A stretch of DNA of 64,000 bases from an uncultured Acidimicrobiia bacterium (GCA_964195545.1 CAXMQQ010000005.1:278-64277), one strand, 5' to 3'. Numbered from the stretch's first letter, positions 9,379-38,681 are shown. The notes: generated by a model from the letters alone, not told the origin. Made by a program: numbers and translations.

Positions 9379-9409
9379 AGAGCCGATAGCTGACTGCTGT
9401 TCGCTGGGC

Positions 9410-10750
9410 TCAGCGGAGTCCCTGCTCAGCGATGAACTCGTCGAGAACGTCGTCGAGATCCGGCTTGCCGATCTCCTGGAGGTCGTAGAACACCCTCGTG
9501 CTGGGCTTCTCGATGTCCACGATGCGCCGGAGGTCGATCGGCGTGCCGATGACGACCGCATCGCAGTCGGTGGCGTTGATCGTTGCCTCCAGATCCCGCA
9601 ACTGCTCCTCGCCGTACCCCATGGCCGGCAGGATCGTTCCGATATTCGGATAGGTCTCGAAGGTCTCCTTCAGCTTGCCCACGAGGAACGGACGTGGATC
9701 GACGAACTCGGTGGCTCCGTACTTGGTAGCTGCCACAACGCCGGCACCGATCTTCATCCCTCCGTGCGTCAGCGTCGGACCATCTTCAACGGCCAGGACG
9801 CGGCTGCCCTTGACCACCGACGGATCCTCGAGACGCAGCGTCGAGGCGGCGTCGATGACTGTGGCATCTGGATTCACCGCCGCGATGCTGCCACGAACGG
9901 TCTCGATGCCTGCCAGATCTGCAGAGTCCATCTTGTTGATGACGACGACGTCGGCCATGCGCAGGCTCACTTCACCGGGGTAGTAGTTCAGTTCGTGACC
10001 GGGTCGGTGCGGATCGACGACGGTGAAAGCGAGATCGGCTTCGTAGAACGAGAAGTCGTTGTTGCCTCCGTCCCAGACGATCACGTCGCAGCCGTCTGGA
10101 TCGTTCTCTGCCGCCCGGACGATCGCTTCGTAGTCCACGCCGGCGTAGATGACGTTCCCGCGCACGATGTGGGGCTCGTACTCCTCCATCTCCTCGATGG
10201 TGCAGTCGTGCTTCTCCAGATCGGCGATCTCGGCGAAGCGCTGGACCTTCTGCGCCACCAGGTCGCCGTACGGCATGGGGTGGCGGATGGCGACGACCTT
10301 GAGGCCCTTGGCCATCAAGGTCTCCACGATCTTGCGGGAGGTCTGCGACTTGCCCGACCCGGTTCGGACCGCACACACGGAGATCACCGGCTTGGTGCTC
10401 TTCACCTGGGTGTCATTGGGTCCGAGCAGATTGAAGGACGCTCCGGCGGATTGAACGATCGCTGCCACACCCATCACGTGCTTGTAGGGAATGTCGCTGT
10501 AGGCAAAGGCACACTCGTCAACATCGAGTTCGTCGATGAGTCGAGGAAGCTCCTCCTCCGCGAAGACAGGGATTCCTTCCGGGTACAGGGGACCTGCCAG
10601 TTCGGCCGGGTAGGTACGGTCATCGATGCCGGGAATCTGCTCGGCGGTGAACGCGACGACCTCTACTGATTCGTCGTTGCGATAGCGGGTGTTGAAGTTG
10701 TGAAAGTCACGGCCCGCAGCCCCCATGATGATCAAGCGTCGTTTGCTCAT
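9410..10750 (-). CDS. COG2403-type P-loop protein (usually annotated GTPase / cyclic 2,3-diphosphoglycerate synthetase-like)
   Basis: N-terminus RRLIIMGAAGRDFHNFN and P-loop RTGSGKSQTS. Start re-set to ATG 10750, preceded by GGAGAG. The track start at 10879 adds an Arg/Pro-rich extension. Confidence 0.7.
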   Translation of the reverse strand: MSKRRLIIMGAAGRDFHNFNTRYRNDESVEVVAFTAEQIPGIDDRTYPAELAGPLYPEGIPVFAEEELPRLIDELDVDECAFAYSDIPYKHVMGVAAIVQSAGASFNLLGPNDTQVKSTKPVISVCAVRTGSGKSQTSRKIVETLMAKGLKVVAIRHPMPYGDLVAQKVQRFAEIADLEKHDCTIEEMEEYEPHIVRGNVIYAGVDYEAIVRAAENDPDGCDVIVWDGGNNDFSFYEADLAFTVVDPHRPGHELNYYPGEVSLRMADVVVINKMDSADLAGIETVRGSIAAVNPDATVIDAASTLRLEDPSVVKGSRVLAVEDGPTLTHGGMKIGAGVVAATKYGATEFVDPRPFLVGKLKETFETYPNIGTILPAMGYGEEQLRDLEATINATDCDAVVIGTPIDLRRIVDIEKPSTRVFYDLQEIGKPDLDDVLDEFIAEQGLR

Positions 10751-10939
10751 CTGGCTCTCTCCAGTCGTTGGCTCGCTGCGCCCGAATGGGAAGGTCGAAG
10801 GCCGGGCGGTACCCTCTGCGCCACTGGACGCTGGTCCCGATCGGGTTGGATTCCGAGGTCTCCGTTCCCGCGACGGCACCGCTCAGTTCAGTTGCAAAAG
10901 GTATGCTACCTATCGGTTGATAGACGGCGCCAATCAGGA

Positions 10940-11551
10940 GTGTCCCTCATACCCAGGGCGTTCCTCCACCCGTTCACCTCACCCCGCAAGGAAGAGTTCA
11001 TCAAGATCGCGAGCGGTCGAGATGCCGTCGTGCTCGACGACCAAGGCAATGAGTACATCGACGGCATGGCTTCGCTGTGGTACTGCAACGTGGGTCACGG
11101 GCGTGAAGACGTTGCGGAGGCGATCGGCACGCAAGCCAGGACCCTCGCCGCATACAACACCGTCGATCCGTTCACGAACGAACCGACCGAAGCGGCGGCG
11201 GCCAAGATCGCGGATCTCTCTCCCTTCGACGACGCTCGTGTCTTCTTCGGTTCATCAGGGTCTGAGGGCGTGGATACAGCGATGAAGATCGCGCGGATCG
11301 CCCATCGCGAGGCGGGACATCCCGAGAAGCAGATCATCGTCAGCCGTGAGCGCGGCTATCACGGCGCGAACTACGGAGGCACGTCGATCCAGGGCATCGC
11401 CCCGATCCGCGAGGGCTTTGGACAGTTGGTTCCCGGCATCATCATCCGCCCGATTCCGCCGAGCCGTCTCACCCTCTGTCCGCCACTCGTCATCACCGAC
11501 GAGCAGATCGACCAGATCGTCGAAGCGATCGGATCCGTTTTGCGCTATTGA
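10940..11551 (+). pseudogene. class III (omega) aminotransferase remnant with a large in-frame internal deletion
   Basis: The N-terminal third is intact (LWYCNVGHGR, FFGSSGSEGVDTAMK, YHGANYGG). It is joined near nt 11435-11445 directly to the extreme C-terminus (LTLCPPLVITDEQIDQIV). The PLP-lysine region is absent. No ATG is present; a possible GTG lies at 10940. Confidence 0.7.
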
Positions 11552-11617
11552 GCGGCACCAACGAAACTCGGTGGGAGTCGATCCGACCGAGAAACGACCT
11601 CTTCCAGGAGGATGACG

Positions 11618-12736: not shown

Positions 12737-12766
12737 GTCGCCAGATCGCCGAGCCTGCGAGCGCGC

Positions 12767-13435: not shown

Positions 13436-13547
13436 CGCGTCAGCCTACCGCCCGATAGGGTCGTGGTTCGAGGTGGATGAGTACGAGAGCCAGCGAGTGA
13501 GACAGGGTGAGCGCCTGCGAGCACACGAGGGGTAGTAGCTTGGCCTC

Positions 13548-14309: not shown

Positions 14310-14418
14310 GTTCTCGACCACCTGAGATGTCGGTCACCAGCATGGGGGTCGAATGGTGCCGGCAGCCGCCATCATCGTGACTCCCGCTCCCAGAACCCCT
14401 GCTGGCTACGGGAGCTCC

Positions 14419-14452: not shown

Positions 14453-14495
14453 TTGTCAGTCGCGAAGCGTTCATTCCCACTCGTACTCCGGTAAC

Positions 14496-18856: not shown

Positions 18857-18866
18857 CCCTGACACC

Positions 18867-18897
18867 AGACAAGAGACTGTTGTCGTATCTCTTGTCT
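18867..18897. terminator. hairpin between convergent genes
   Basis: AGACAAGAGA / TCTCTTGTCT, a perfect 10-bp stem with an 11-nt loop. Confidence 0.5.
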
Positions 18898-18911
18898 CAC
18901 ATCTCGAGTCT
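18877..18911. repeat. degenerate heptad array (ctgttgt cgtatct cttgtct cacatct cgagtct)
   Basis: Strict 7-nt phasing of C...TCT read directly. Partly overlaps the hairpin. Confidence 0.6.
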
Positions 18912-18917
18912 CAGGGA

Positions 18918-20629: not shown

Positions 20630-21610
20630 ATGGATTCCACGTCACCCGTCACCGTCGAACGCCGCGGCCACATTGCCGTCGTGTGGCTCGACCGCCCGGA
20701 CCATCGCAACGCATTCGCCCCTCCGTTCTGGACTTCATTCCCGACCGTCATAGAGGAGATGGGGGAAGATCCCGAGATTCGGGCCATCGTTGTGGCAGCA
20801 AAGGGACCGGCGTTCACGGTGGGACTCGACCTGAAGGCATTCGGTCCCGCCATGGTCACAGGAAGCCTTGACCCGGCGGTACCGGCACCTGCCTCACCGG
20901 TCGCTCAACGCGTCCAGACACGGCGTCTCGTCAAGACGATGCAACGGACCTTCTCCTCGCTGGCCGAGTGCCCGAAGCCGGTGATCGCAGCGATCCACGG
21001 GTACTGCATCGGTGCGGGCGTCGACCTGATCACGGCTTGCGATATTCGCTATGCCGCCGCCGACACCACATTCTCGATCCGGGAAACCCGACTTGCCATG
21101 GTGGCAGACGTGGGAACGCTCCAACGTCTCCCAAGGATCATCGACCCGGGTAGCGTCGCCGAACTCGCCTACACAGGACGAGACTTCGACGCCGCCGAAG
21201 CCGCATCAAACGGCCTCGTCACCCGCATCCTCCCCGATGCCAACGCTGCGGTTGCCGCGGCGATCGAAACTGCCGACGCGATCGCAGCGAACTCGCCGCT
21301 GGCCGTGCAGGGAACAAAGGCCGTTCTCCGAGCAGGCGACGGCCGGACGGTCGATGAAGCCCTCGACTACGTGGCCCTCTGGAACGCCGCTTTCCTCCAA
21401 TCGAACGATCTCGGAGAGGCGATGGCGTCGTACGTGGAGCGGAGAACTCCAGAATTTCGCGGGGGGAAGTTCCACATCGTCTGGGGTAATCACTACTCAG
21501 TACTCACTACTCAGTACGAATCCGACGGCGGAGCCGTCGGATTCAGGCATAATGGGTCCATGTTCGGGACTCCTCTCACCGATCGCGGTCACCTCTTCGC
21601 TGCTCCGTAG
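20630..21610 (+). CDS. enoyl-CoA hydratase/isomerase family protein with an atypical ~50-aa C-terminal tail
   Basis: Crotonase fold motifs (VVWLDRPDHRNAF, AAIHGYCIGAGVDL). The conserved end ...ERRTPEFRGG is followed by read-through to the stop at 21608..21610. Confidence 0.85.
   Translation: MDSTSPVTVERRGHIAVVWLDRPDHRNAFAPPFWTSFPTVIEEMGEDPEIRAIVVAAKGPAFTVGLDLKAFGPAMVTGSLDPAVPAPASPVAQRVQTRRLVKTMQRTFSSLAECPKPVIAAIHGYCIGAGVDLITACDIRYAAADTTFSIRETRLAMVADVGTLQRLPRIIDPGSVAELAYTGRDFDAAEAASNGLVTRILPDANAAVAAAIETADAIAANSPLAVQGTKAVLRAGDGRTVDEALDYVALWNAAFLQSNDLGEAMASYVERRTPEFRGGKFHIVWGNHYSVLTTQYESDGGAVGFRHNGSMFGTPLTDRGHLFAAP
21494..21517. repeat. heptanucleotide array TACTCAG TACTCAC TACTCAG TAC
   Basis: Read directly. 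Lies inside the 3' tail of the enoyl-CoA hydratase ORF. Confidence 0.8.
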
Positions 21611-21661: not shown

Positions 21662-22930
21662 GTGACCACCCTCTCCGACCGACTCAACACCCTCATCGCC
21701 CCTGTCATCGCGTACGACTCGCAAATCGACATCGTCGACGGCCAGGGTTCGTGGGTTACCGACATCGACGGCAAGCAGTACCTCGACTTCGCCTGTGGCA
21801 TCGCAGTCACCAACCTCGGCCACCGTCCCCCGGCCCTCGAGGCCGCGGCGCATGAGCAACTCTCCCATCTCTGGCACGCCGGTGGGTCGTTCCTGTTCGA
21901 GTCGCGGGCCGACGCTGCCGAGAAGATCATCGACGTGGCGCCAGACAGTATCGAGCAGATCTTCTTCATGAACTCCGGCGCCGAAGCCGTTGAGGCTTCC
22001 GTGAAGTTGGCCAAGAAGACTTCGGGTCGCCAGGGTGTCGTCGTCTTTCGCGGTGGCTTCCACGGCCGGACGATGGGATCGGTCTCGTTCACGACGTCTC
22101 GAGCGAAGTATCGGAAGGGCTACCACCCGATCGTCCCCTCCGTGTTCGTCACCCCGTTCCCCCACCCTTACCGTTGGGGAATGTCACAGGAGGACGCGAA
22201 CGCCTACGCCCTCAACGAACTGCGTCTCATCTTCAAGCATGAGGTGGTGCCGGAGGAGATCGCAGCATTCCTCTTCGAGCCGCTCCAGGGCGAAGGAGGC
22301 TATTACCCCGCCAGCTTCGAGTTCATGCAAGCCATTCGGGATTTGGCCGATGAGCACGGCATCCTCATGATCGTCGATGAAGTCCAGTCCGGGTTCGGCC
22401 GGACAGGGGAGTTCTTCACCAGCCAGGTCTACGGGATCGATCCCGACATCCTCGTGATGGGGAAGGCGATCGCGAACGGCTTGCCGCTTTCTGCCGTTGG
22501 GGCTTCAAGGGAGACCTTCGCAAAGTGGGAGCCGGGATCTCACGGTACGACGTTCGGCGGGAATCCCGTTTCGTGCGCGGCGGCCGCGGCGGGTGTTGAC
22601 GAGTTGAAGAAGGTCATTCCCGGTGTTGCCGACCGTTCGGACTTGGCGTTCACCCGGTTCGGCGATCTGCTCGAGAAGCACCGCACAATCGGTGACGTTC
22701 GGGGTCTCGGACTCATGATCGGCGTCGAACTGGTCAAGCAAGACCGGGAGCCCGATTCAGACGCATTCGGGGTGATTTCGAGTGAGGCACAGAAGAACGG
22801 TTTGTTCATCCTCAGCTGTGGCCCCGACAACAACGTGATCCGTTTCGTCCCGCCGCTCAATGTGTCGCTCGAAGATCTCGAGACCGGCATCGACATCCTC
22901 GATCAAGCGATCGCGACCTACGAGAACTGA
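21662..22930 (+). CDS. class III aminotransferase (4-aminobutyrate / acetylornithine aminotransferase-like)
   Basis: 422 aa with FMNSGAEAVE, DEVQSGFGRTG and a PLP-Lys region (VMGKAIANG). GTG start after AGGAGG. Confidence 0.9.
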   Translation: MTTLSDRLNTLIAPVIAYDSQIDIVDGQGSWVTDIDGKQYLDFACGIAVTNLGHRPPALEAAAHEQLSHLWHAGGSFLFESRADAAEKIIDVAPDSIEQIFFMNSGAEAVEASVKLAKKTSGRQGVVVFRGGFHGRTMGSVSFTTSRAKYRKGYHPIVPSVFVTPFPHPYRWGMSQEDANAYALNELRLIFKHEVVPEEIAAFLFEPLQGEGGYYPASFEFMQAIRDLADEHGILMIVDEVQSGFGRTGEFFTSQVYGIDPDILVMGKAIANGLPLSAVGASRETFAKWEPGSHGTTFGGNPVSCAAAAAGVDELKKVIPGVADRSDLAFTRFGDLLEKHRTIGDVRGLGLMIGVELVKQDREPDSDAFGVISSEAQKNGLFILSCGPDNNVIRFVPPLNVSLEDLETGIDILDQAIATYEN

Positions 22931-22953
22931 TTTCGGGCAGCCTAGAACGTGCA

Positions 22954-22982
22954 GAAGGCGGCGCCCGATGGGCACCGCCTTC
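22954..22982. terminator. bidirectional hairpin GAAGGCGG...CCGCCTTC
   Basis: Perfect 8-bp outer stem plus an inner GCCC/GGGC pairing, between convergent genes. Confidence 0.6.
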
Positions 22983-22986
22983 TCAC

Positions 22987-23021
22987 TCAATACTCGAGTC
23001 TCAGTACTCAATACTGAGCAT
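22987..23021. repeat. degenerate heptad array (tcaatac tcgagtc tcagtac tcaatac tgagcat) with embedded hairpins
   Basis: 7-nt phasing read directly. CTCAGTA-ctcaa-TACTGAG hairpin at 23000..23018. CTGAGC-atcg-GCTCAG hairpin at 23014..23029. Confidence 0.7.
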
Positions 23022-23025
23022 CGGC

Positions 23026-23214
23026 TCAGTTCTGCGTCAGAACACCGCGGAGGCGCGGATACTTGACGGGCTTGTGCGTGTGGCAGAACTCTGCACGGTT
23101 GTAGCGAGAGAGAACGGTCTCACAATCGTCGGAACCGCAGACGCGGCCTTCGTCATACGTCTTGGGGCGACGGGATCTGCCCTGGGGGCGAGACGCTTTC
23201 ATAATATCTGACAT
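23026..23214 (-). CDS. small Cys/His-containing protein (62 aa), possible zinc-binding, function unknown
   Basis: MSDIMKASRPQGRSRRPKTYDEGRVCGSDDCETVLSRYNRAEFCHTHKP. GGAGG RBS before ATG 23214. The track start at 23331 adds an Arg/Ser-rich extension. Confidence 0.5.
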   Translation of the reverse strand: MSDIMKASRPQGRSRRPKTYDEGRVCGSDDCETVLSRYNRAEFCHTHKPVKYPRLRGVLTQN

Positions 23215-23352: not shown

Positions 23353-24867
23353 TCAATCCGGCCGATGGCGTCCGGCGAGGGCCCCGAGACCGCCCTCTCC
23401 CGGCCAGAGTAGGGCGCCGATCAGACCGAGAATCGCCAGCACGGTCGCCCAGTTGGGGAACCGTGTGAAGACGGTGGGTCCTGCGCTGCGCATTGCAACG
23501 TCGCCGTAGAGCACGCCCTCGGTGAACACCTCGGTGGTTTCCCCGACTTCGCCGGCCGCTGTGACGAAGGTCGATTTCCCCGTGATGGCTGCATGGACGA
23601 GATCCTGGCCGATGGCCGCAGCGTTCACTTTCGTCATGTCGATCAATTGATCAGAGGTGGCTGTTTCACCGAAGGAGCTCTCATTCGTGGCAACGACCAT
23701 GAGTTGCGAGCCGGCATCGGCGATCGAGTGGATCGATCGGGGGAAGGCACCTTCGAATGAGATCACCGAACCCAACTGCCATTGCGCCAACTCCCCGTCG
23801 GTCGAGAGCGTCATCGGGAAGACAACGGGTTCGGTACCGCGAACCATGTCCCTCGGCACCTGGTCGAGTTGGGGGATGAAGCCCAGCATCGAGCGCAGTG
23901 GAACGTACTCACCGAACGGAACCGGGTGTTGCTTGACATACTCGCCGATCTTGACGCCCTCCGGCGAGTAGAACATGTTGACGTTGAGAAAACCGTCGGG
24001 TTCGACAGTTCGGGTTCCCGACACCAGGAAGTAGGTGCCGATTCTTCCCGCTTGAGCGATGATGGCTGCCCTCACGGCATCGTTGCTCTCAGGGTCGAAC
24101 GGAGTCCCCGTCGAGTTCTCTGCCCAGACGACCAGGTCCGCCCCACCGTCCGGGATCGTTTCCGTCCACTCCAGGTGGGATTCGAAGATGCGCTGGTTCT
24201 CGTTCTGACAGTGGGTCATGGGGCAGGGTGACCCACCCTGCACGATCGCAACACGAAGCGGTTGCCCATCCGCTCTCGGCGGGAACAGCATCCCTGCCAC
24301 ACCGAGCAACACGATCACGACCGATACGTCGACAAACTGCCTCCAGTTGTCCCGCGACTCCACGAGGAGTGCGACTGCCGCCGCAAACGCGACCGCGAGC
24401 ACCGTCCAACCCGCCGGGCCGATCCATTGAACGGTGCCAAGGAAGGGTGGCATCCCGGCCGCCGCGTAGCCGATGTTCCCCCAGGGGAACCCGCCGAACG
24501 GGAATCGGGCGCGGACGAACTCGATCACCGTCCACGCCCCGACGACGATGAGCCACCATCGCCATGCGGGCCACAGACGGAAGAGCCAAACGACGAAGGC
24601 GTAGGCCGCGAAGTAGGTCGCCATCAAGAGAACGAGAGGTACCCATGCGATGAAGCCCAGAACGGTAATCCAGAAGAGCAGCGTTCCGAAGAAGACCGTT
24701 CCCCATAGGAAGCCGATCGTGACCGCTTCGAACCCTTGCTCGACACGGCGCAACGCCCAGAACAGGGGAATCGGCGCGACGAACGCAAGCGGCCCGATGT
24801 CGAGCGGCGGGAACGCCGCCCACATGAGCAGAGCGCTGGCCAGCGCGGCGAGATAGGGAAGGAGCAT
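23353..24867 (-). CDS. lnt: apolipoprotein N-acyltransferase
   Basis: 504 aa. N-terminal multi-TM region followed by a nitrilase/CN-hydrolase-like domain (VWAENS, ISFE). Confidence 0.88.
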   Translation of the reverse strand: MLLPYLAALASALLMWAAFPPLDIGPLAFVAPIPLFWALRRVEQGFEAVTIGFLWGTVFFGTLLFWITVLGFIAWVPLVLLMATYFAAYAFVVWLFRLWPAWRWWLIVVGAWTVIEFVRARFPFGGFPWGNIGYAAAGMPPFLGTVQWIGPAGWTVLAVAFAAAVALLVESRDNWRQFVDVSVVIVLLGVAGMLFPPRADGQPLRVAIVQGGSPCPMTHCQNENQRIFESHLEWTETIPDGGADLVVWAENSTGTPFDPESNDAVRAAIIAQAGRIGTYFLVSGTRTVEPDGFLNVNMFYSPEGVKIGEYVKQHPVPFGEYVPLRSMLGFIPQLDQVPRDMVRGTEPVVFPMTLSTDGELAQWQLGSVISFEGAFPRSIHSIADAGSQLMVVATNESSFGETATSDQLIDMTKVNAAAIGQDLVHAAITGKSTFVTAAGEVGETTEVFTEGVLYGDVAMRSAGPTVFTRFPNWATVLAILGLIGALLWPGEGGLGALAGRHRPD

Positions 24868-24880
24868 GGCCAGGGAAGGG

Positions 24881-24901
24881 TACTGAGTACTGAGTACTCA
24901 G
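24881..24901. repeat. heptanucleotide array TACTGAG TACTGAG TACTCAG, with 12-bp palindrome CTGAGTACTCAG at 24890..24901
   Basis: Read directly in the divergent lnt / inositol monophosphatase intergenic region. Confidence 0.8.
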
Positions 24902-24927
24902 TGCCGCCGCAACCGTAGGCTGGCGGC

Positions 24928-25713
24928 ATGGACGATCTTCAACTAGCGATTGACGCCGCGCGGGCCGGCGGGGCGATTGTTCTCGAGGGATTCGATCGTG
25001 GCGTGACAGCGCACTACAAGCGACGCTTCGACCCGGTGACGGAGATCGATCACGCTTCTGAGGCTGCAGTGCTGGCGATCATCTCGGAGCATCGACCGGA
25101 TGACGCGATCCTGGCTGAGGAGCGGGGAGGCACGATTCCCGGAGGTCGCCGCTGGATCGTCGATCCCCTCGACGGAACCGTGAACTTCGTGCACGGCATC
25201 CCTCAGATCGCCGTCAGCGTCGGGTTGTGGGAGGACGACAAACCGCTCGCCGCTGTCATCTACGACCCGCTTCGTGACGAGTGCTTCTCCGCCGCCGCCG
25301 GCCAAGGTGCGTTTCTCAACGGACGCCGAATCAACGTGTCCCAAACCGACGACCTTGAGCGATCCGTAACCGCGACCGGTTTCCCGTACGACCACGGGGA
25401 CCACCCGGAGGAGTACGCCGCAGTGCTGGAAGCGGTGCTGGGATCCGTGAACGGCATTCGTCGGTTCGGTTCCGCGGCGCTCGATCTCGCCTGGGTCGCG
25501 GCGGGCCGATATGAGGCCTACTGGGAGCTCGGTCTCGCGCCTTGGGACCAGGCGGCCGGAATCCTCATCGTTCGGGAGGCCGGCGGTCGTGTAACGGACT
25601 TCAGCGGCAAAGATTCTGTGCCGGAGACACCGATGGTGTTGTCCAGCAACGGCTTGGTTCATGATCAGCTCCAGAAGATCCTCGAACCTGCCCTTCCGGA
25701 TCGCCTCAGATGA
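24928..25713 (+). CDS. inositol monophosphatase family protein
   Basis: WIVDPLDGTVNFVHG and AAG...WELGLAPWD motifs. Confidence 0.9.
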   Translation: MDDLQLAIDAARAGGAIVLEGFDRGVTAHYKRRFDPVTEIDHASEAAVLAIISEHRPDDAILAEERGGTIPGGRRWIVDPLDGTVNFVHGIPQIAVSVGLWEDDKPLAAVIYDPLRDECFSAAAGQGAFLNGRRINVSQTDDLERSVTATGFPYDHGDHPEEYAAVLEAVLGSVNGIRRFGSAALDLAWVAAGRYEAYWELGLAPWDQAAGILIVREAGGRVTDFSGKDSVPETPMVLSSNGLVHDQLQKILEPALPDRLR

Positions 25714-27925: not shown

Positions 27926-29605
27926 TCAATCGCAAACGGCGCCACGTTCGGCGGATCCGACCAACTTGGCGTACTTTCCGAGGGCGCCGGTTGGGTAGCG
28001 AGCCGCAGGTGCCTCCCAGGAGCCGCGCCTGGCCTCCATTTCGTCTTCGTCGATCAGAAGGTCGAGTCGCCGCGCCGGTAGATCGACACGGATCCGATCG
28101 CCCTCGTGCACAAGACCCATCGGTCCACCCTTTGCGGCTTCCGGAGCCACGTGTCCGATGCAAAGGCCCGTCGTCCCGCCGGAGAATCGGCCATCGGTGA
28201 TCAGAAGCACGTCCTTGCCGAGGCCTGCGCCCTTGATCGCCGCGGTGATCGCAAGCATCTCCCTCATCCCCGGACCTCCGGCCGGGCCCTCGTATCGGAT
28301 CACCACAACGTCCCCGGCATGAAGATCGTGGGCCCACAACGCCTCGAGCGCATGCTGTTCGTCGTCGAAGACCCTGGCGGTTCCCTCAAAGACATCGAGG
28401 TCGATACCGGCGATCTTCACGACGGCGCCGCCCGGGGCGAGCGAGCCACGGAGGATGGCGATGCCACCCTCTTCGGCGACCGGCTCTGCGAACGCTCGGA
28501 CCACGTCCTGCTGCTCCGGGAACACGACCGTCTCGAGGTTCTCAGCCATCGTCCCGCCGGTCACGGTCAGCGCATCCCCATTGATGAGCCCCTCGTCGTA
28601 GAGGGCACGCAGCACAACGGGAACCCCGCCGATCCGATCGAGATCCACCATGTGATAGCGACCGAACGGCTTGAGATCACCGACATGAGGTGTTCGCCGG
28701 CTTATCCGATCGAAGTCTTCGAGCGTGAGGTCGACGCGCGCTTCGTGGGCGAGAGCGAGAAGGTGCAACACAGCGTTCGTCGACCCTCCGAGCGCCATTA
28801 CCACGGTGACGGCGTTCTCGAACGCCTCCCTCGTCATGATGTCTCTCGGGCGGATGCCGGCCCGGAGCAACTCCATGGCCGCTTCACCGGACTGTCGGGC
28901 GTAGTCGTCGAGGCGCTTCGAGATGGCGGGGACCGAGGCGCTACCGGGGAGCGACATGCCGAGGGCCTCACCCACCGAAGCCATTGTGTTCGCAGTGAAC
29001 ATCCCGGCACACGAGCCAACGCCGGGACAGGCAGCCTGTTCGATGCGTAGCAATTGAGAATCGTCAATTCGACCCTCGGAGTGGGCGCCGATGCCCTCGA
29101 AGACATCCACGATTGAGATGTCGACACCATCGAGCTTGCCTGGAAGGGACGACCCTCCGTATAGGAACACCGACGGGAGATTGTGCCGCGCAGCGGCCAT
29201 GAGCATCCCAGGGAGCGACTTGTCGCAACCGGCGATCGAGACCATCGCGTCGAACCTCTCTGCGTGCATGACGAGCTCAACGGAGTCTGCGATGACCTCC
29301 CTGGAGACGAGCGAGGCCCGCATGCCCTCGTGTCCCATCGAGATTCCGTCGGAGACGGCAATGGTGGCGAAGACGAGACCCACACCGCCCGCCTCGTTCA
29401 CGCCCTCTCTGGCTCGTGCAGAGAGCTTCGGACCGGTCAGATTGCAGGGGGTGACTTCATTGCCGGCGCTCACGACACCGACCTGCGCCTTGATGAAATC
29501 GTTCTCGCCAAGGCCGACGGCGCGCAGCATCGCTCTGGCACCGGCCTTGGCAGGGCCGTCGGTCACGTCCTGGGAATGGATCTTGACGGGGGTCTCGTTA
29601 GACAT
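27926..29605 (-). CDS. ilvD: dihydroxy-acid dehydratase
   Basis: Full-length IlvD with CDKSLPGM and [12 protein letters not shown] Fe-S motifs. Start re-set to ATG 29605 ([11 protein letters not shown]). Confidence 0.93.
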
Positions 29606-29686
29606 GGCAGCAGCGTAACCGGTGGATTCGTCACCGGAGTCAGCCAGAGACGAGAGGACAGCCAGCACTCCGGCGTCTGGTCTTCA

Positions 29687-29749
29687 CTGTTTGCTGTTTG
29701 CTGTTTGCTGTTTGCTGTTTGCTGTTTGCTGTTTGCTGTTTGCTGTTTG
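29687..29749. repeat. tandem heptanucleotide array (CTGTTTG)x7 followed by CTGTTCG and CTGTCCG
   Basis: Read directly in the 208-bp divergent ilvD / LCP intergenic region. It is translated as the CLLFAV repeats in a spurious track ORF. Confidence 0.9.
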
Positions 29750-29813
29750 CTGTTCGCTGTCCGCTTCCCGTCACCAGCACAATCCGTATCAGGATTCCGG
29801 CGATAGCCTCTTC

Positions 29814-30854
29814 ATGGTCATGACCACCGATACATACCCTGCGATCCCCCAGACGCCGCCTCCGCCACCACCTGCCCCGACGAAGAAGAAGGGCGGATTC
29901 GCGAAGAAGGCGTTCTTCGCTCTCCTCATCCTCGCGGTCATCGGAGTATTCGGGACAATCGGGTACGTCAAGTGGACCGAAGGCAAGATCGACCGGATCC
30001 CAACGGAGGAGTTGGCCAGCCTCGCGACCATGGCGCCCGGGTCTTCGGAGCCAGTCAACTTCCTAGTTATCGCCACGGACGACCGGTCCGACCTCCCCGC
30101 CGACTGGGAAGACAACTTCGGCGAGTTCACCGGTCGCAGGACCGACGTGATGATGCTCGCTCACCTCGTTCCAGGTGAACGGATCCAGCTGCTCAGCCTC
30201 CCACGTGATCTCCAAGCCGAGATCGAGGGTCACGGGACGAATCGACTGAACGCAGCGTTCGTATTCGGTGGACCGGACCTCCTCATCAAGACGGTGCAAG
30301 AGGAAACCGGTATCCCCGTTCACCACTACGTCGAGATCGACTTTGGTGGTTTCGGTCGGATCGTCGACTCGCTCGGCGGCGTGACGATCGATTTCCCCTA
30401 CCCGGCTCGGGATGGCAAGTCTGGATTCGAGGTCGACGCAGGAACGCACACCCTCGACGGCGAGATGGCGGTCGCCTATGCCCGGTCCCGGACATACGAG
30501 GAGTACAAGGACGGCTCGTGGCAAGGAACCGGTGGTGGAGACATCGCCAGGACACAGCGTCAGCAGGACATCATGGTGCAACTCTTCGACCAGGTTGCCT
30601 CTCCATCGAGCGCCTTCAATCTCCCACGGTTCCTGCCCACGTTCGCCGACAACATCACAGCCGATGAGGCGCTTGGACTTGCGTTGATGACGGATCTCGG
30701 TCGATCGGCCCTCGGTCTGCAGTCTTCGAGCATCGACCGGATCACGCTCCCGGTCAAGAACCACAAAGGCAGCGACGGCCGCGCCTATGTGATCCCGACT
30801 GAGGCGGCACCGGCAGTGATCGCCGCCTTCAAGGTTGGCGACCCCTACCCCTGA
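29814..30854 (+). CDS. LytR-CpsA-Psr (LCP) family protein
   Basis: Pro-rich cytoplasmic tail, one TM helix, and LCP domain motifs (RTDVMMLAH, SLPRDL, GGFGRIVDSLGGV). Start re-set to ATG 29814. Confidence 0.85.
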   Translation: MVMTTDTYPAIPQTPPPPPPAPTKKKGGFAKKAFFALLILAVIGVFGTIGYVKWTEGKIDRIPTEELASLATMAPGSSEPVNFLVIATDDRSDLPADWEDNFGEFTGRRTDVMMLAHLVPGERIQLLSLPRDLQAEIEGHGTNRLNAAFVFGGPDLLIKTVQEETGIPVHHYVEIDFGGFGRIVDSLGGVTIDFPYPARDGKSGFEVDAGTHTLDGEMAVAYARSRTYEEYKDGSWQGTGGGDIARTQRQQDIMVQLFDQVASPSSAFNLPRFLPTFADNITADEALGLALMTDLGRSALGLQSSSIDRITLPVKNHKGSDGRAYVIPTEAAPAVIAAFKVGDPYP

Positions 30855-32074: not shown

Positions 32075-32093
32075 GTCCAGTGCTCCCAGAGAC

Positions 32094-32550: not shown

Positions 32551-33411
32551 CTAGGGTGCTCCAACATCGACGATCTCGTCGACCTTCCGGTCCCGGAACC
32601 CGGCAGTCACGTTCTTCACCGTGAGGACGATGAAGAAGATGGCGATCGGGATGACGGCCATCGTTGCCGAGCCGGACGTGTTGGCGTGATACGAGATGAT
32701 CAGACCCACGACCACTGAGAAGACACCTATCAGCGCCGCCACAGTCATCATCGCGGGCACTCGACGCACAAGCAGAGCCGCCGTCGCCGGTGGTCCGACC
32801 AACAGGCCGAACACGAGAAGCGTCCCAACGGTCTGGAATGATCCGACGATCGACAGCACGATGAGTCCGAGCAGCAGCACGTGCGTCACACCAGGACGAA
32901 GGCCGTACAGCTGCGCTTTCTGTTCATTGAACGACAGGACCAGGAAGTGCCGGTAGAAGAGCACGGATGTTCCGATGGCGACCACCGTGATGACGGCCAG
33001 GACAATCAGATCGGTCTGCGTGACGCCGAGTACGTCGCCGAAGAGAATCGCGGTGAGGCTCCCGCTGTACGAGGCCGACTTCGAGATGAGAATGACACCG
33101 AGCCCCAGCATTCCCACGAAGAGCAGTCCGATTCCCGTGTCCTCCGAAAACGTCGTCTGCCGGTGGACGAGGTTGATGCCCCAGATCATGACGAGTGCAG
33201 CAATCGCCGCACCGATGAGCGGGTTGAATCCGATGAGGATGGCGAGGGCGATTCCTGGGATCACACCGTGAACGAGAGCGTCACCGAGGAAGGTCATCCC
33301 CCGAATGACCACCCAGGTCCCGACGACCGAAGTGGTGAGTGCCGCGAGCGAACCCGCAAGCAGCGCCCGCTGCTGGAACGCCAGTTCGAAGGGAGCGGTC
33401 AGGAACTCCAT
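32551..33411 (-). CDS. znuB: metal (Zn/Mn) ABC transporter permease, ABC-3 family
   Basis: 286 aa with 8-9 TM segments and the ABC-3 family pattern (FLGDALVHGVIPG). Confidence 0.85.
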   Translation of the reverse strand: MEFLTAPFELAFQQRALLAGSLAALTTSVVGTWVVIRGMTFLGDALVHGVIPGIALAILIGFNPLIGAAIAALVMIWGINLVHRQTTFSEDTGIGLLFVGMLGLGVILISKSASYSGSLTAILFGDVLGVTQTDLIVLAVITVVAIGTSVLFYRHFLVLSFNEQKAQLYGLRPGVTHVLLLGLIVLSIVGSFQTVGTLLVFGLLVGPPATAALLVRRVPAMMTVAALIGVFSVVVGLIISYHANTSGSATMAVIPIAIFFIVLTVKNVTAGFRDRKVDEIVDVGAP

Positions 33412-33451
33412 GCGATTTCCACGGTAGGCCTGGCGTCGATGATGGCAGGCG

Positions 33452-33532
33452 GACAGCAGACAGCAGACAGCAGACAGCCAGATGCCGGTGACAGAGAGTC
33501 TGGCTGTCTGCTGTCCGCTGTTGTCTGTCGTC
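33452..33532. repeat. heptad-built long inverted repeat: (GACAGCA)x3 GACAGCC, a 22-nt loop, then GGCTGTC TGCTGTC CGCTGTT GTCTGTC
   Basis: Read directly between znuA and znuB. The first 14 nt of the arms pair perfectly and the next 14 pair at about 5 of 7 per heptad. Confidence 0.85.
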
Positions 33533-33539
33533 TCATATA

Positions 33540-34463
33540 TCAGTCCAACGCTTCGGCTATCCGGCGCGCGTTCGATCGCAGCAGGCCGACCAGTGTGTCG
33601 CCTTCGGTTCCCGGTTCGCCGAGGGAACCCGTGTACAACTCAACGACCTCGATCCCGTGGCCAACTTCGGCGGCGACGGTGCGAGCGAGCACGTCGGACT
33701 CGACCGTTTCGGTGAAGATGGCAGGAACCTGTTCGCGTTCGATGGTTTCCACGAGCGACGCAAGTTCGGCAGATGAGGGATTCGCGAGCGTCGCGCCACC
33801 AGGGATCACTCTCCCGATCATCTCGAAGTCGTAGCGATCGGAGAAGTACCCGAATGCCCCGTGATTCGTAACCAGTTTGCGGTCGGCGGCCGGCACAACG
33901 GCAAGCATCTCGATGCTCTCCTCATGAACCCGATCCAACTCAACAACATATGCCTCTGCGCTCGCGGACCAGTCTCGACCAGGCGCTATCTCGGAGAGGT
34001 GAACGGCAAGGAGTCGGGCGGCGTCGATGTCCCGCAAGGGATCGAGCCAGAAGTGAGGGTCGAGATTCCCGTCGTCGTGCTCGTCGGCATCCGGGGCTTC
34101 CGCGAAGTGCCGCGGGTTGATGTCCGGCCCGACCTCCCAAACTCGAACACCGTCGGCGGCCGCGGCATCAAGAACGTCGCTCAATCCGTCTTCGAGACCG
34201 AGTCCGCTCGCAACGACAAGATCGGCCCTCTGGATGGCTGCGACTTGTTGAGCAGACGCGTGGAAGTCGTGCGGGTTCACGCCGACCGGCATCAGGACGA
34301 CGACCTCGCCCGCATCACCGACCACACTCTGCGCCAGATCCCCCAAAACCGTCGTGGTAGCAACGACACGGACGCCCGCGTCGTCGTCAACGCCGGACTC
34401 GCATCCAGCAAGTGTCAGCAGCGTGAGCGCGGCAACAGCGATCACCGCTGCGAATCTCTTCAC
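33540..34463 (-). CDS. znuA: metal ABC transporter substrate-binding lipoprotein (ZnuA/TroA family)
   Basis: Lipobox LTLAGC, His/Asp-rich loop (EAPDADEHDDGNLDPHFW), and NHGAFGYF. Start re-set to GTG 34463 after AAGGAG. The track ORF extends to 34808 through the zur antisense strand. Confidence 0.82.
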   Translation of the reverse strand: MKRFAAVIAVAALTLLTLAGCESGVDDDAGVRVVATTTVLGDLAQSVVGDAGEVVVLMPVGVNPHDFHASAQQVAAIQRADLVVASGLGLEDGLSDVLDAAAADGVRVWEVGPDINPRHFAEAPDADEHDDGNLDPHFWLDPLRDIDAARLLAVHLSEIAPGRDWSASAEAYVVELDRVHEESIEMLAVVPAADRKLVTNHGAFGYFSDRYDFEMIGRVIPGGATLANPSSAELASLVETIEREQVPAIFTETVESDVLARTVAAEVGHGIEVVELYTGSLGEPGTEGDTLVGLLRSNARRIAEALD

Positions 34464-34479
34464 TCCCGACTCCTTGCAT

Positions 34480-34502
34480 ATAATGAGAATGGTTCCTATT
34501 AT
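34480..34502. promoter_or_regulatory. putative Zur box ATAATGAGAATGGTTCCTATTAT in the divergent znuA / zur promoter region
   Basis: AT-rich imperfect palindrome (arms match 8 of 10) in an otherwise GC-rich context, centred between the two starts. Confidence 0.55.
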
Positions 34503-34532
34503 CAACGCAACGCTATCAGTAAGCATCCGGTA

Positions 34533-34967
34533 ATGCAACACGTCGAGCAATCCGTCGAACAGCGTCTCGCTCAGGAGGGCATCCGCTTCACACAAGGGCG
34601 GAGAAGCACCGTCGAAATGCTGTCGACGATGCACGGGCCTCGCGCGGCGGCAGAGATCCACAATCGACTCGGCGGCACAGTCCCCCTGTCCTCGTTGTAC
34701 CGATCGCTGTCGGTTCTCACCGAGGCAGGCGTCCTCTCCGCGCAGCACGGATCCGACGGAGTCATCAGATTCGAGCTCGCAGAGTGGATCACCGGTCACC
34801 ACCACCACCTCGTCTGCACATCATGTGGGGCGGTTATCGACGTGACTCCATCCAGCGACCAGGAAGAAGCGATGGAGCAACTTGTTGAGAACATGGCTCA
34901 TGAAGTCGACTTCGTCGTATCGGGCCACCGATTCGAGATCGAAGGGACGTGCAACGCATGCCGGTAA
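34533..34967 (+). CDS. zur: Fur family transcriptional regulator, Zur-like
   Basis: 144 aa with a winged-helix N-terminus, HHHHLVCTSCG and CNAC (two CxxC pairs). Located in the zinc-transporter locus. Confidence 0.85.
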   Translation: MQHVEQSVEQRLAQEGIRFTQGRRSTVEMLSTMHGPRAAAEIHNRLGGTVPLSSLYRSLSVLTEAGVLSAQHGSDGVIRFELAEWITGHHHHLVCTSCGAVIDVTPSSDQEEAMEQLVENMAHEVDFVVSGHRFEIEGTCNACR

Positions 34968-35809: not shown

Positions 35810-35873
35810 TGTCCGAGCGACAGAGCGGCGCAGACACTTCTTGAACTTGCAATAATCACATCGACGGACCGGG

Positions 35874-37532: not shown

Positions 37533-37541
37533 CTCGCAGAG

Positions 37542-38597
37542 TCAGGCCGCTTTCCGCTGCTTTCTGCGCCACGCGAGGAACGTACCGGCTCCGATGAAGA
37601 CCTGGGGGAAGTAGGTCAGCGCCCGCCACACCATCACAGCAGCCAGAGCGTCGCTGTTCGCTGCGCCGAACGCAACGAGGATCGCTGTGATCGCTGCGTC
37701 GACCGTTCCGAGACCGCCCGGCGTGATCGGGATGAACGAGGCGAGGCGTCCGAAGGCGTAGGCAACAAGCGCCTCAACAAAGGTCACGGGGGCCGTGGAA
37801 CCACCTTGGATCGCGTAGACCGCCAACCAGAGGATGAGGAACTGCATGAACTGCTGGAAATAGTTCGTTGCGGTGATCCGCAACCAGCGTCCCTTGATGA
37901 CATCAACCGTCGAATTCCGGAAGTCGACCACCCACTCGGTCACGTCGAGGCTCGGCTCCTTCTTGAAGAGTCCGTACGCCCATCCGACGATCCGATCGGC
38001 GAATCGACCGATCTTCCGTGCGCTGTTCTCGCTCCAGAAGATCGCCACGAAGAGGGCCACGATGCCCACGATCGCGATTAGTCCGATACCGGCGAGTGCG
38101 TATGCCTGGCTGGTTCCCTGACCGATGATGACGAGAGCGACGGCGCCGATGACGGGGAGACTGAGTGTTACGAACGTGTTCCAGGTGCTCGTGATTCCGA
38201 TTGCAGCGGTGGTCTCCGCCGCCCCGTATCTGTAGGAACTGAGCATGGCGTACTGGATAGCGAGTCCGAATGCACCACCGGCCGGGATCACATTGCTGAT
38301 CAGGAACGAGGTCTGGCGAACGACGAACCCGGGTCCGTACTTCAGACCGGGGAGTGCCGCCTGATACGGCCAGACGTAGACGATGATGAGAATGACCGTG
38401 GCAATAACCAGGAACACCAGGGCGACCGTCGACATCTTCTGCACGGCGTCCCAGGCTTCTCCATAATCGGCGAACTGCGGAAACACCACCCCGAACACGA
38501 AGACGAGCGTGACCAGCGTGATGATCCCGGCGATGATCTGCTTCTTCTTGTTGGTCTTGTTCGGCGCCGGAAGTGCCGCAGCTGGGTCGTTGGTCAT
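37542..38597 (-). CDS. UPF0104 / lysylphosphatidylglycerol-synthase-TM-region (flippase-like) membrane protein
   Basis: Polytopic with C-terminal PGGLGTVDAAITAILVAFG. Start re-set to ATG 38597. Confidence 0.7.
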   Translation of the reverse strand: MTNDPAAALPAPNKTNKKKQIIAGIITLVTLVFVFGVVFPQFADYGEAWDAVQKMSTVALVFLVIATVILIIVYVWPYQAALPGLKYGPGFVVRQTSFLISNVIPAGGAFGLAIQYAMLSSYRYGAAETTAAIGITSTWNTFVTLSLPVIGAVALVIIGQGTSQAYALAGIGLIAIVGIVALFVAIFWSENSARKIGRFADRIVGWAYGLFKKEPSLDVTEWVVDFRNSTVDVIKGRWLRITATNYFQQFMQFLILWLAVYAIQGGSTAPVTFVEALVAYAFGRLASFIPITPGGLGTVDAAITAILVAFGAANSDALAAVMVWRALTYFPQVFIGAGTFLAWRRKQRKAA

Positions 38598-38653
38598 AGG
38601 CGAGAGTCTAGATCCAAGAGGGCACCGGGCAACGAGAGATCTGCGCCGGAGCC

Positions 38654-38681
38654 CTGTCTGGGAACTGGAGACTGAGGACTG
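38654..38681. repeat. heptad array CTGTCTG GGAACTG GAGACTG AGGACTG
   Basis: 7-nt phasing of ...ACTG read directly in the divergent intergenic region. Confidence 0.6.

What the first reader, a model, noticed from the sequence alone, without database searches (positions are those of the whole stretch)
9389..38681. Family of intergenic arrays with strict 7-nt periodicity (STRR-like heptanucleotide repeats) in a high-GC, actinobacterial-type genome
At least eight intergenic loci in this window carry short arrays phased at exactly 7 nt, with differing units:
- 9389..9409: GCTGACT GCTGTTC GCTGGGC
- 18877..18911: CNNNTCT x4-5
- 21494..21517: TACTCAG-type
- 22987..23021: TCNNNAC x4
- 24881..24901: TACTGAG / TACTCAG
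- 29687..29749: CTGTTTG x7, then two degenerate copies
- 33452..33532: GACAGCA x3-4 and its complement
- 38654..38681: NNNACTG x3-4

They sit at convergent gene ends, in divergent promoter regions and in one intercistronic gap, but never inside a conserved coding core. The closest established analogue I know of is the STRR heptanucleotide repeats of filamentous cyanobacteria. I am not aware of an equivalent description for this kind of genome. Because the units are diverse but the period is conserved, a period-specific generating mechanism or selection seems more likely than the spread of one mobile sequence.
Basis: partly seen in the sequence, partly recalled or inferred. Interest (0 to 1): 0.6.

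Follow-up and report, generated by a model that had tools for sequence, protein, structure and literature searches.

The report
Heptamer repeat arrays between genes
The spaces between genes of this uncultured marine-sediment actinobacterium (class Acidimicrobiia) hold many fast-changing 7-base tandem repeats, a known and still unexplained kind of bacterial repeat, and here they use the same repeat units as the paired arms that bracket a small four-helix-bundle gene (PF05635) in its relatives, which gives a testable lead on their origin.

Summary
The period-7 signal is real. Genome-wide, Tandem Repeats Finder gives 225 period-7 arrays, against 63 for period 8 and 82 for period 10. Density is 399/Mb between genes and 40/Mb in genes.

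Of the eight listed loci:
- four are individually strong (21494, 24881, 29687, 33452)
- two are moderate (18877, 22987)
- two are at chance level (9389, 38654)

The trait is patchy within the genus and order. About 1 Mb of other actinobacterial DNA shows no period-7 excess. At orthologous spacers the unit and copy number turn over between species.

Heptanucleotide repeats are already reported as the commonest long simple-sequence repeat in prokaryotes (Mrazek 2007, read only through citing papers), so this is a new member of a known kind.

The units are not free. They are rich in TA and GTA. 47 of 131 are identical to units of the inverted arms that bracket PF05635 ("23S rRNA intervening-sequence protein") genes in relatives (about 5 expected). 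Two G000 sites that hold such cassettes in relatives carry decayed cassettes; a third carries a gene-less hairpin.

Best reading (about 0.5): paired or orphaned arms of such hairpin cassettes, remodelled by slippage. Function is unknown.

The parts
33452..33532 (.). Gene-less hairpin whose two arms are heptamer arrays: GACAGCA x3.9 (33452-33478), a loop of about 20 nt, then CTGTCTG/CTGTCCG-type units (33498-33532). It sits in the gap between the metal ABC-transporter binding-protein gene (33540-34595, minus) and the permease gene (32551-33411, minus).
   Evidence: TRF. The sequence was read. The RNA fold of 33440-33540 (minus) gives -56.2 kcal/mol, z = -6.9, with 0 of 200 shuffles as stable. 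The unit is identical to the arm units of PF05635 cassettes L177, L179 and L180. Flanking genes were named.
29640..29760 (+). CTGTTTG x9, then CTGTTCG and CTGT (29687-29760). This is an expanded right arm. A decayed complementary left arm lies at about 29640-29668 (CAGCCAGAGACGAGAGGACAGCCAGCA). The site is the divergent spacer between ilvD (true ATG about 29605, minus) and the LCP-family gene (ATG 29814, plus).
   Evidence: TRF score 141, 98% matches. In the orthologous spacer, G012 and G020 have GACAGC-type and CTGTNNG arms, G005 and G010 have TCGGTAC-type arrays, and seven other species have a short spacer of about 90 nt with no array. The stretch has no significant fold of its own.
24880..24902 (.). 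GTACTGA GTACTGA GTACTCA array. It is self-complementary and forms a 12-bp hairpin. It lies in the 60-nt divergent spacer between lnt (23353-24867, minus) and an inositol-monophosphatase-family gene (24928-25713, plus).
   Evidence: TRF. Fold z = -3.4. Logan contigs of the probable source sample carry one extra GTACTGA unit here. G012 and G005 have AGCTACC...GGTAGCT inverted arrays around about 110 nt at the same spacer.
21486..21517 (+). GTAATCA CTACTCA GTACTCA CTACTCA GTAC array, directly followed by a 12-bp GC-rich hairpin (21518-21544). It lies downstream of the conserved end of the enoyl-CoA hydratase gene.
   Evidence: TRF: period 7 x4.6, period 14 x2.3. The Pfam ECH domain ends at residue 310 (about 21464). 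G011, G012 and G016 have a TAG stop just after PEFRG, followed by a variable spacer. Fold.
22985..23021 (+). Degenerate heptamer array (TCAATAC TCGAGTC TCAGTAC TCAATAC TGAGCAT). It follows a terminator-like hairpin (about 22953-22983) in the convergent spacer after the aminotransferase gene.
   Evidence: TRF x4.4 at 66% matches. Lag-7 match 16/28, moderate. Fold z = -4.8 for 22930-23030. A relative about 90% identical in run X6 skips 22925-23027; what lies between in its contig is not known.
18857..18917 (.). Small hairpin (CAGACAAGAGA / TCTCTTGTCTG). Its right side continues as degenerate TGTCTC-type heptamers (18877-18911). It lies in the convergent spacer between the DUF4389 and DUF4349 genes.
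   Evidence: Lag-7 match 16/28, moderate. Fold z = -2.0 (plus strand) and -3.3 (minus strand). Flanking genes.
9389..9409 (.). GCTGACT GCTGTTC GCTGGGC. Not distinguishable from chance.
   Evidence: Lag-7 match 9/14. 73 windows in the 64 kb reach this at period 7, against 31-108 at periods 8, 10 and 11. Not reported by TRF.
38654..38681 (.). NNNACTG x4. Not distinguishable from chance.
   Evidence: Lag-7 match 13/21. 21 windows reach this at period 7, against 8-21 at periods 8, 10 and 11. Not reported by TRF. No fold signal.

Best explanation
The arrays are heptanucleotide long simple-sequence repeats of the STRR type. They gain and lose whole 7-nt units by replication slippage and are tolerated only outside reading frames.

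In this lineage they are largely not independent microsatellites. They are the stem arms of small hairpin cassettes, found paired, self-paired, orphaned or decayed. The full-length cassette, present in nearly every species of the genus, carries a PF05635 four-helix-bundle gene (the '23S rRNA intervening-sequence protein' or S23p family) between two inverted arrays of about four units.

G000 mostly holds gene-less or broken derivatives. One arm can then expand on its own, as CTGTTTG x9 has at 29687.

- **Shown:** the excess of period 7, the intergenic restriction, the fast turnover at fixed sites, the arm architecture of the cassettes, the shared unit repertoire, and decayed cassettes at two orthologous G000 sites (a partial gene copy lies at a third site, not mapped to a relative).
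- **Inferred:** that most solo arrays descend from cassette arms, and that slippage is the resizing mechanism.
- **Unknown:** how the arms spread, why the period is 7, and whether the hairpins do anything. RNase III processing or termination of intergenic transcripts is the obvious candidate.
For: 1. **Real and specific excess.**
2. **Lineage-specific and patchy.** Density is 90-275/Mb in 12 of the 35 sampled relatives and 0-33/Mb in 18 others. In 0.97 Mb from 80 other Actinomycetota loci, period 7 gives 27 arrays and period 8 gives 35.
3. **Turnover at fixed sites.** The ilvD-LCP spacer, the lnt spacer and the spacer after the hydratase gene differ in unit and copy number between species. Across 55 kb compared between the MAG and contigs of the same sample, the only two indels are +7 nt (one GTACTGA unit) and +9 nt, a multiple of three.
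4. **Cassette architecture.** Of 32 PF05635 loci in the order, 22 have periodic arrays on both sides. In 20 of those 22, the 3' unit is the reverse complement of the 5' unit, with at most 1 mismatch. Several of the others are cut by contig ends. At a background of at most about 270 arrays/Mb, two arrays within 200 nt of a given gene are expected in well under 1% of cases.
5. **Arms track the protein.** Each protein subclade has its own arm unit, and two subclades have 8-nt units.
6. **Shared repertoire.** 47 of 131 G000 units are identical to a cassette-arm unit, against 4.7 in letter-shuffled controls. 101 of 131 are within one mismatch, against 54 expected (maximum 71).
7. **Shared sites.**
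   - G000 C6:56340-56520 keeps the cassette leader and a TGCTGTC x4 arm, but the gene is deleted.
   - C9:4700-5050 and C29:42899-43156 hold partial PF05635 genes with arm remnants.
   - C21:6140-6215 is a gene-less TCTCACA hairpin at the site where G014 has a cassette.
8. **Window hairpins.** 33440-33540 has z = -6.9 and 24868-24930 has z = -3.4.
9. **Elsewhere in the phylum.** 8 of 14 PF05635 loci have inverted arms 365-421 nt apart bracketing the gene, and by my reading most of these arms are heptamer-periodic.
10. **Published parallel.** The Coxiella 23S IVS carries an S23p ORF, a 28-bp terminal stem cut by RNase III, and tandem GACAGAT heptamers whose number varies between strains (PMC4990558).
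Against: - No intact PF05635 gene is assembled in G000 (the MAG is 84% complete), and none lies in the window or in the syntenic regions of relatives.
- Only 34 of 125 arrays have a complementary partner within 120 nt, against 12-18 in the controls.
- Spacers with arrays do not fold better than spacers without them.
- The link between PF05635 copy number and array density is weak: rho = 0.44, p = 0.014, with no phylogenetic correction. There are clear exceptions. G033 has 150 arrays/Mb and no PF05635. G001, G003, G022, G028 and G029 have the gene and few arrays.
- Flanks of arrays share no sequence between loci, and I saw no obvious target-site duplication at the one spacer I inspected, so no transposition mechanism is evident.
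- The shuffled-unit control keeps base composition but not dinucleotide composition. Part of the unit sharing could therefore reflect a common sequence preference and not common descent.
- The direction could be the reverse: cassettes may settle in hairpins that already exist.
Confidence: 0.5

Rival explanations
1. These are plain microsatellite-like repeats. A property of replication or repair in these lineages favours slippage by 7 nt, as Mrazek and co-workers proposed from the length of DNA held by the polymerase. Arrays arise anew anywhere that selection allows. PF05635 cassettes have heptamer arms only because any long-lived hairpin or spacer in such a genome becomes heptamer-periodic.
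For: - Two-copy exact heptamer duplicates are 5 times the Markov expectation between genes and show no excess in genes.
- Perfect runs such as CTGTTTG x9 look like recent expansions.
- There is a one-unit difference within one sample.
- About 70% of arrays lack a partner.
- G033 has arrays but no PF05635.
- Within arrays, distinct variant events are not significantly concentrated in particular columns (p = 0.12), which fits drift plus slippage.
- The hypothesis is published for many phyla (via PMC4679880, and PMC4692102).
Against: - It does not explain why the two arms of 20 of 22 cassettes are exact complements of each other while the units differ between cassettes.
- It does not explain why arm units follow protein clades, including two clades with 8-nt units.
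- It does not explain why a third of G000 units equal cassette-arm units.
- It does not explain why G000 has decayed cassettes at the cassette sites of relatives.
- Neither repair-gene candidate tracks the trait. Ku is absent from the genus but present in most of the order. NucS is present almost everywhere.
Confidence: 0.3
2. The arrays are selected cis-acting elements. They could be binding sites for a nucleic-acid-binding protein with a 7-nt register, or RNA stems that set transcript ends, RNase III processing or translation. This has been proposed for TAACTGA repeats in Beggiatoaceae and for heptamer repeats upstream of recF and recO in Nostoc.
For: - Arrays persist at the same spacers across species while their sequence changes.
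- Density is highest in convergent spacers: 0.68/kb, against 0.33 in tandem and 0.21 in divergent spacers.
- Several window arrays abut terminator-like hairpins.
- Many arrays end 5-15 nt before my predicted start codons, where I saw no obvious Shine-Dalgarno motif.
- The purine-rich arm tends to come first: 16 to 4 in cassettes, and 15 to 4 among strongly skewed G000 pairs.
- There are published hints of regulatory effects (PMC4679880; bioRxiv 10.1101/2022.06.06.494920).
Against: - Units differ between loci and between orthologous sites, so one sequence-specific binding protein cannot serve them all.
- Seven species of the genus lack any array at the ilvD spacer, and several species have almost none. 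The arrays are therefore dispensable.
- Strand bias relative to the neighbouring genes is weak.
- There is no general gain in predicted structure.
- No RNA data exist for this organism.
Confidence: 0.15
3. The arrays are chance or an assembly artefact.
For: Two of the eight listed loci (9389, 38654) are at chance level. MAG contigs and Logan contigs break at long arrays.
Against: - The genome-wide excess is five- to nine-fold over neighbouring periods and over Markov controls.
- Independent assemblies of the same sample reproduce the arrays.
- Related species assembled by others show arrays at the same spacers.
Confidence: 0.01

Closest known systems
Long simple-sequence repeats with heptanucleotide units (Mrazek, Guo and Shah, PNAS 2007; read only through PMC4679880 and PMC4692102)
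   Same: Tandem 7-nt units are over-represented relative to other long units. The distribution among lineages is sporadic. Units that are not multiples of three are mostly outside genes. Slippage is the proposed source.
   Different: I found no report for Acidimicrobiia. Here many unit families coexist in one genome, about a quarter of arrays come as inverted pairs, and the units are shared with the arms of PF05635 cassettes.
Cyanobacterial STRR sequences (three tandem heptanucleotides first reported in Calothrix PCC 7601; cited in PMC4692102, unit sequences from my own knowledge)
   Same: Tandem heptamers lie between genes. There are several unit types. Different arrays sit side by side. The function is unknown.
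   Different: The phylum differs and so do the units. One relative, G032, has CTGGGGA, a rotation of the complement of STRR1. Arrays here are short, mostly 3-5 copies.
Xanthomonas GGGAATC and Nostoc GGGGAYT heptamer arrays (Rehm et al. 2015, PMC4692102)
   Same: Arrays are intergenic, about four units is the commonest length, and 70-75 convergent pairs per Xanthomonas genome could form stem-loops. Arrays sit between the same genes in related species but differ in length and sequence.
   Different: Those genomes use essentially one G-rich unit with quadruplex potential. Here the units are GGG-poor and TA-rich and number over 100 classes. That paper makes no link to S23p/PF05635. Yet the only solved structure matching the cassette protein is XCC0516 of X. 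campestris (2GSC).
TAACTGA direct repeats of marine Beggiatoaceae, some Cyanobacteria and Bacteroidetes (MacGregor 2015, PMC4679880)
   Same: Sets of 2-6 copies of a heptamer lie between genes, many just upstream of start codons that lack a Shine-Dalgarno site. The phylogenetic distribution is patchy. The unit resembles GTACTGA.
   Different: There is one dominant unit in one orientation, and almost no inverted pairs (one indirect repeat among 170 sets). In G000 the strand bias is weak.
ORF-bearing intervening sequence (IVS) of 23S rRNA, e.g. Coxiella burnetii (Warrier et al. 2016, PMC4990558)
   Same: An S23p/PF05635 ORF lies between terminal inverted repeats that form a stem of about 28 bp. 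Tandem heptamers (GACAGAT, close to GACAGCA here) lie in the 5' arm, and their copy number varies between strains. The element is regarded as selfish.
   Different: The IVS sits inside the 23S rRNA gene and is excised by RNase III. The cassettes of this genus sit between protein-coding genes, and the window holds only gene-less forms. No RNA processing was tested here.

Membership tests
Heptanucleotide long simple-sequence repeats (LSSR) | Head-to-tail tandem copies of a 5-11 nt unit, longer than composition predicts | tested here: met
   There are 15 arrays with at least 3 perfect copies at period 7, against 0-3 at periods 5, 6 and 8-12. There are 129 exact two-copy duplicates between genes, against 26 in a Markov control. 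TRF finds 54 arrays of at least 4 copies.
Heptanucleotide long simple-sequence repeats (LSSR) | Copy number changes by whole units (slippage) | tested here: inconclusive
   There is one +7 nt (GTACTGA) difference between the MAG and contigs of the same sample. Species differ in copy number at the same spacer. Only contigs were available, not reads, so within-population variation could not be measured. Five arrays on C9 showed no change.
Cyanobacterial STRR | Tandem heptanucleotide units in non-coding DNA | tested here: met
Cyanobacterial STRR | Membership by descent: a cyanobacterial host and the STRR unit sequences | tested here: not met
   The genome is Acidimicrobiia (closest IlvD relatives). 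None of the top units equals an STRR unit. Only relative G032 has one array of the STRR1 complement.
IVS-like PF05635 (S23p) hairpin cassette | Two inverted, complementary arms able to form a long stem | tested here: met
   Met for 33452-33532 (z = -6.9) and, as a self-paired mini-hairpin, for 24880-24902. Not met for 29687-29760, which is a solo arm. Genome-wide, 34 of 125 arrays have a partner.
IVS-like PF05635 (S23p) hairpin cassette | PF05635 ORF between the arms | tested here: not met
   There is no PF05635 match in the window or in the syntenic loci of relatives. G000 has only degenerate copies, on C29 and C9. The window arrays can therefore be at most gene-less derivatives, not members in the full sense.
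IVS-like PF05635 (S23p) hairpin cassette | Same arm units as bona fide cassettes of the lineage | tested here: met
   GACAGCA, GTACTGA and GTACTCA are identical to cassette-arm units. CTGTTTG and ACTCAAT differ by one base. Genome-wide, 47 of 131 units are identical, against 4.7 expected.
IVS-like PF05635 (S23p) hairpin cassette | Location in 23S rRNA and excision by RNase III | tested here: not met
   Location: all window arrays lie between protein-coding genes, and Rfam finds no rRNA in the window. The RNase III half of this feature could not be tested with these tools; no RNA run holds this organism.
MITE / REP-type mobile repeat | Conserved element body and ends shared between copies, with target-site duplications | tested here: not met
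   An all-against-all BLAST of 100-nt flanks finds no shared sequence between loci apart from further heptamer stretches and two longer matches of 56-66 nt. I saw no obvious duplication at the ilvD spacer insertion.

The most novel reading that the evidence does not exclude
Tandem heptamer arrays in bacteria have gone unexplained since the STRRs of 1990. On this reading they are mainly the cis-acting stem arms of a widespread selfish hairpin cassette, not free microsatellites. The autonomous form of the cassette encodes a pentameric PF05635 four-helix-bundle protein. This is the family of the ORFs in 23S rRNA intervening sequences and, from my own knowledge, of the Avd proteins of diversity-generating retroelements. 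Gene-less arrays such as those in this window would be its miniature or decayed copies. The 7-nt (sometimes 8-nt) register would be set by how the protein, or the machinery that copies the arms, reads them.
Probability: 0.3. Interest if true: 0.8.

Novelty: new member of a known kind. Interest (0 to 1): 0.42.

Why it matters
On its own, this is one more lineage with heptamer repeats (marine-sediment Acidimicrobiia). Such repeats are known but unexplained, and that adds little.

Two things could matter more.
1. In this genus nearly every PF05635 gene sits between inverted arrays of the same units that litter the spacers, and broken cassettes sit at orthologous sites. This turns 'why seven?' into concrete experiments: does the protein bind the arms, and does RNase III cut them?
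2. The arrays break short-read assemblies and cover start and stop regions. They therefore cause mis-called gene ends, as with the enoyl-CoA hydratase ORF here.

Tried and rejected
1. **NHEJ fill-in of staggered breaks as the source of 7-nt duplications.** Ku (PF02735) is absent from 18 of 20 genus members and from G000, yet present in most array-free genera of the order. There is no correlation.
2. **Loss of NucS/EndoMS mismatch repair.** NucS is present in 35 of 41 genomes irrespective of arrays.
3. **A classical MITE with a conserved body.** Flanks share nothing between loci.
4. **A general structured-RNA class.** Fold z-scores of spacers with and without arrays do not differ (p = 0.34 to 0.99). 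Rfam finds nothing in the window.
5. **A conserved core with a variable block within units, as a protein site would give.** Mismatches do cluster in columns (p < 0.001). This disappears when identical variants are counted once (p = 0.12). Only the contiguity of variable columns remains (p = 0.005).
6. **Strand-specific placement relative to genes.** Only a weak pyrimidine bias, at 30-60 nt.
7. **RNA evidence.** No RNA run holds this organism.
8. **Population copy-number variation.** Only Logan contigs were available. They gave two indels in 55 kb.
9. **The original Mrazek 2007 paper.** It could not be read and is cited second-hand.

Full report
**What the window is.** It is C5:278-64277 of a 2.08-Mb, 91-contig MAG with 62.5% G+C and 84% completeness. 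The closest named relatives of its IlvD are Acidimicrobiia MAGs at 75-79% identity. The runs that hold it are marine-sediment metagenomes. Twenty species of the same genus are held (IlvD 89-95%).

- TRF on the window reports eight period-7 rows out of 25.
- I compared each listed locus with all windows of equal length in the 64 kb, at other periods.
  - 21494, 24881, 29687 and 33452 are unmatched at periods 5, 6, 8, 10 and 11.
  - 18877 and 22987 are moderate.
  - 9389 and 38654 are at chance level.
  - TRF arrays: 225 at period 7, against 93, 63, 82 and 71 at periods 6, 8, 10 and 11. Arrays of at least four copies: 54, against 2 at period 8.
  - Arrays of at least three perfect copies: 15, against 0-3 at other periods.
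  - Match probability between genes is raised at lags 7, 14, 21 and 28.
  - With gene starts refined by coding score, period-7 density is 399/Mb between genes and 40/Mb within them. Period 8 is 43 and 27.
  - Exact two-copy heptamer duplicates between genes number 129. A Markov control gives 26 and period 8 gives 13. Coding DNA follows the simple geometric decline.
- The arrays cover about 1% of intergenic DNA.
- The array at 21486 lies in a long ORF but past the conserved PEFRG end of the hydratase, where G011, G012 and G016 have a stop codon.

**Who has them?**
- In 0.97 Mb from 80 other Actinomycetota loci there is no period-7 excess: 27 arrays, against 35 at period 8.
- I sampled 35 relatives.
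  - Ten genus members and two other genera of the order (G032, G033) have 90-275 arrays/Mb.
  - Eighteen other genomes, five of them in the same genus, have 0-33/Mb.
- The trait is therefore patchy, as described for such repeats in general (PMC4679880).

**How do they evolve?**
- At the ilvD-LCP spacer, seven species have about 90 nt and no array. G000, G012 and G020 carry GACAGC-type and CTGTNNG arms. G005 and G010 carry TCGGTAC-type arrays of up to 10 copies.
- The lnt spacer holds GTACTGA x3 in G000. In G012 and G005 it holds AGCTACC...GGTAGCT arms around about 110 nt.
- The spacer after the hydratase gene also differs between species.
- In a relative of about 90% identity, contigs skip two array regions; what they hold there is not known.
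- Across 55 kb, the MAG and contigs of the same sample differ by only two indels: one GTACTGA unit, and a 9-nt unit whose length is a multiple of three.

**Are the units free?** No.
- There are 109 classes, but TA is 4.5 times and GTA/TAC 6 times the intergenic background. GGG/CCC is depleted to 0.16 times.
- A few families dominate: NGTASTS, GAGACAY, ACAGCNN and AAGTAG.
- The same families recur in other species at other loci.
- Arrays cluster. About 17 spacers hold two or more arrays.
- 34 of 125 arrays have a complementary partner within 120 nt, against 12-18 in controls.

**The cassette lead.**
- Notes of earlier agents of this scan said that heptamer arms bracket PF05635 genes in other phyla. 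I tested this here.
- PF05635 is present in 19 of 20 genus members and in five other genera of the order. It is present in only 9 of 151 sampled Actinomycetota.
- Of the 32 PF05635 loci, 22 have periodic arrays on both sides. In 20 of those 22 the arms are reverse complements. Several of the remaining loci are cut by contig ends.
- In L197 a variant unit is mirrored at the matching position of the other arm.
- Arm units follow protein subclades, and two subclades use 8-nt units.
- The same chromosomal site can hold cassettes of different clades and orientations in different species.
- Elsewhere in the phylum, 8 of 14 loci have inverted arms 365-421 nt apart that bracket the gene. By my reading most of these arms are heptamer-periodic.
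- The protein matches the solved Xanthomonas XCC0516 (2GSC), described as a pentamer of four-helix bundles (PMC4990558).
- The same paper describes tandem GACAGAT heptamers of variable number in the 5' arm of the Coxiella IVS.

**The link to G000.**
- 47 of 131 G000 units are identical to a cassette-arm unit (4.7 expected). 101 are within one mismatch (54 expected).
- All six intergenic TRF arrays of the window are within one mismatch, and four are identical.
- Flanks of the cassettes of relatives map to G000 sites that hold:
  - a cassette leader plus one arm, with the gene deleted (C6)
  - a partial gene (C9)
  - a gene-less hairpin with another unit (C21)
- A degenerate gene copy with arm remnants also lies on C29; it was found by protein search, not by flank mapping.
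- In the window, 33440-33540 folds into a stem of about 30 bp (z = -6.9). 24868-24930 forms a 12-bp stem. 29640-29775 does not fold.

**What weakens the link.**
- G000 has no intact PF05635 gene assembled.
- Most arrays are solo.
- Spacers with arrays fold no better than spacers without them.
- The correlation of gene copies with array density is weak and has exceptions.
- No mobility mechanism is visible.
- I therefore give the cassette-arm reading about 0.5, pure slippage 0.3 and a selected regulatory role 0.15.

**Other tests.** Ku and NucS do not track the trait. The purine-rich arm tends to come first: 16 to 4 in cassettes, 15 to 4 among strongly skewed G000 pairs, but 19 to 13 over all pairs.

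**Verdict.** It is a new member of a known and unexplained class. The cassette association is the part worth following.

Noticed in passing
window 21545-21610 (+): A 16-codon ORF (MFGTPLTDRGHLFAAP, 21560-21610) is conserved in G011, G012 and G016. A conserved CATAAT lies 7 nt before its ATG, just upstream of the aminotransferase gene (21662). It may be a leaderless leader peptide.
   Followed up: partly
window 21464-21610 (+): The enoyl-CoA hydratase ORF of G000 lacks the TAG stop that three relatives have after PEFRG. It reads on for 46 codons through the heptamer array and the hairpin, into the small ORF's frame. This is either a real stop loss or an error in the GGGGGG run.
   Followed up: partly
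relatives' loci L189, L194, L195, L196, L200, L208: Two PF05635 protein subclades have arms with 8-nt units (GAGTAGCN, CAGTAGAT). All sit at one hot-spot locus next to a LuxR-type regulator gene, in either orientation depending on the species.
   Followed up: partly
relatives' PF05635 loci: Many PF05635 genes lie within a few hundred bases of contig ends, so these cassettes break short-read assemblies. Their copy numbers in MAGs, G000 included, are probably underestimates.
   Followed up: no
relatives' cassettes, 10-20 nt upstream of the PF05635 start codon: A conserved TCTGGTA / TCTGATA motif lies between the 5' arm and the start codon in most cassettes of the genus. It may be a promoter or a processing signal.
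   Followed up: no
genus G001-G020: Ku (PF02735) is missing from 18 of 20 species of this genus and from G000, while most other genera of the order have it.
   Followed up: no
window 29518-30018 in runs X1 and X2: Summed contig depth jumps to 196 and 1670 (background 10-30 and 1-5) over the CTGTTTG array. Contigs from elsewhere in the same sediment metagenomes, or from other organisms in them, therefore carry the same repeat words.
   Followed up: no
G000 C34:1229 / C6:59303 and C65:3080 / C15:47450: Two pairs of array flanks share 56-66 nt at 84-85% identity. These may be copies of the 51-nt REPIN-like element that other readers noted in this genome.
   Followed up: no
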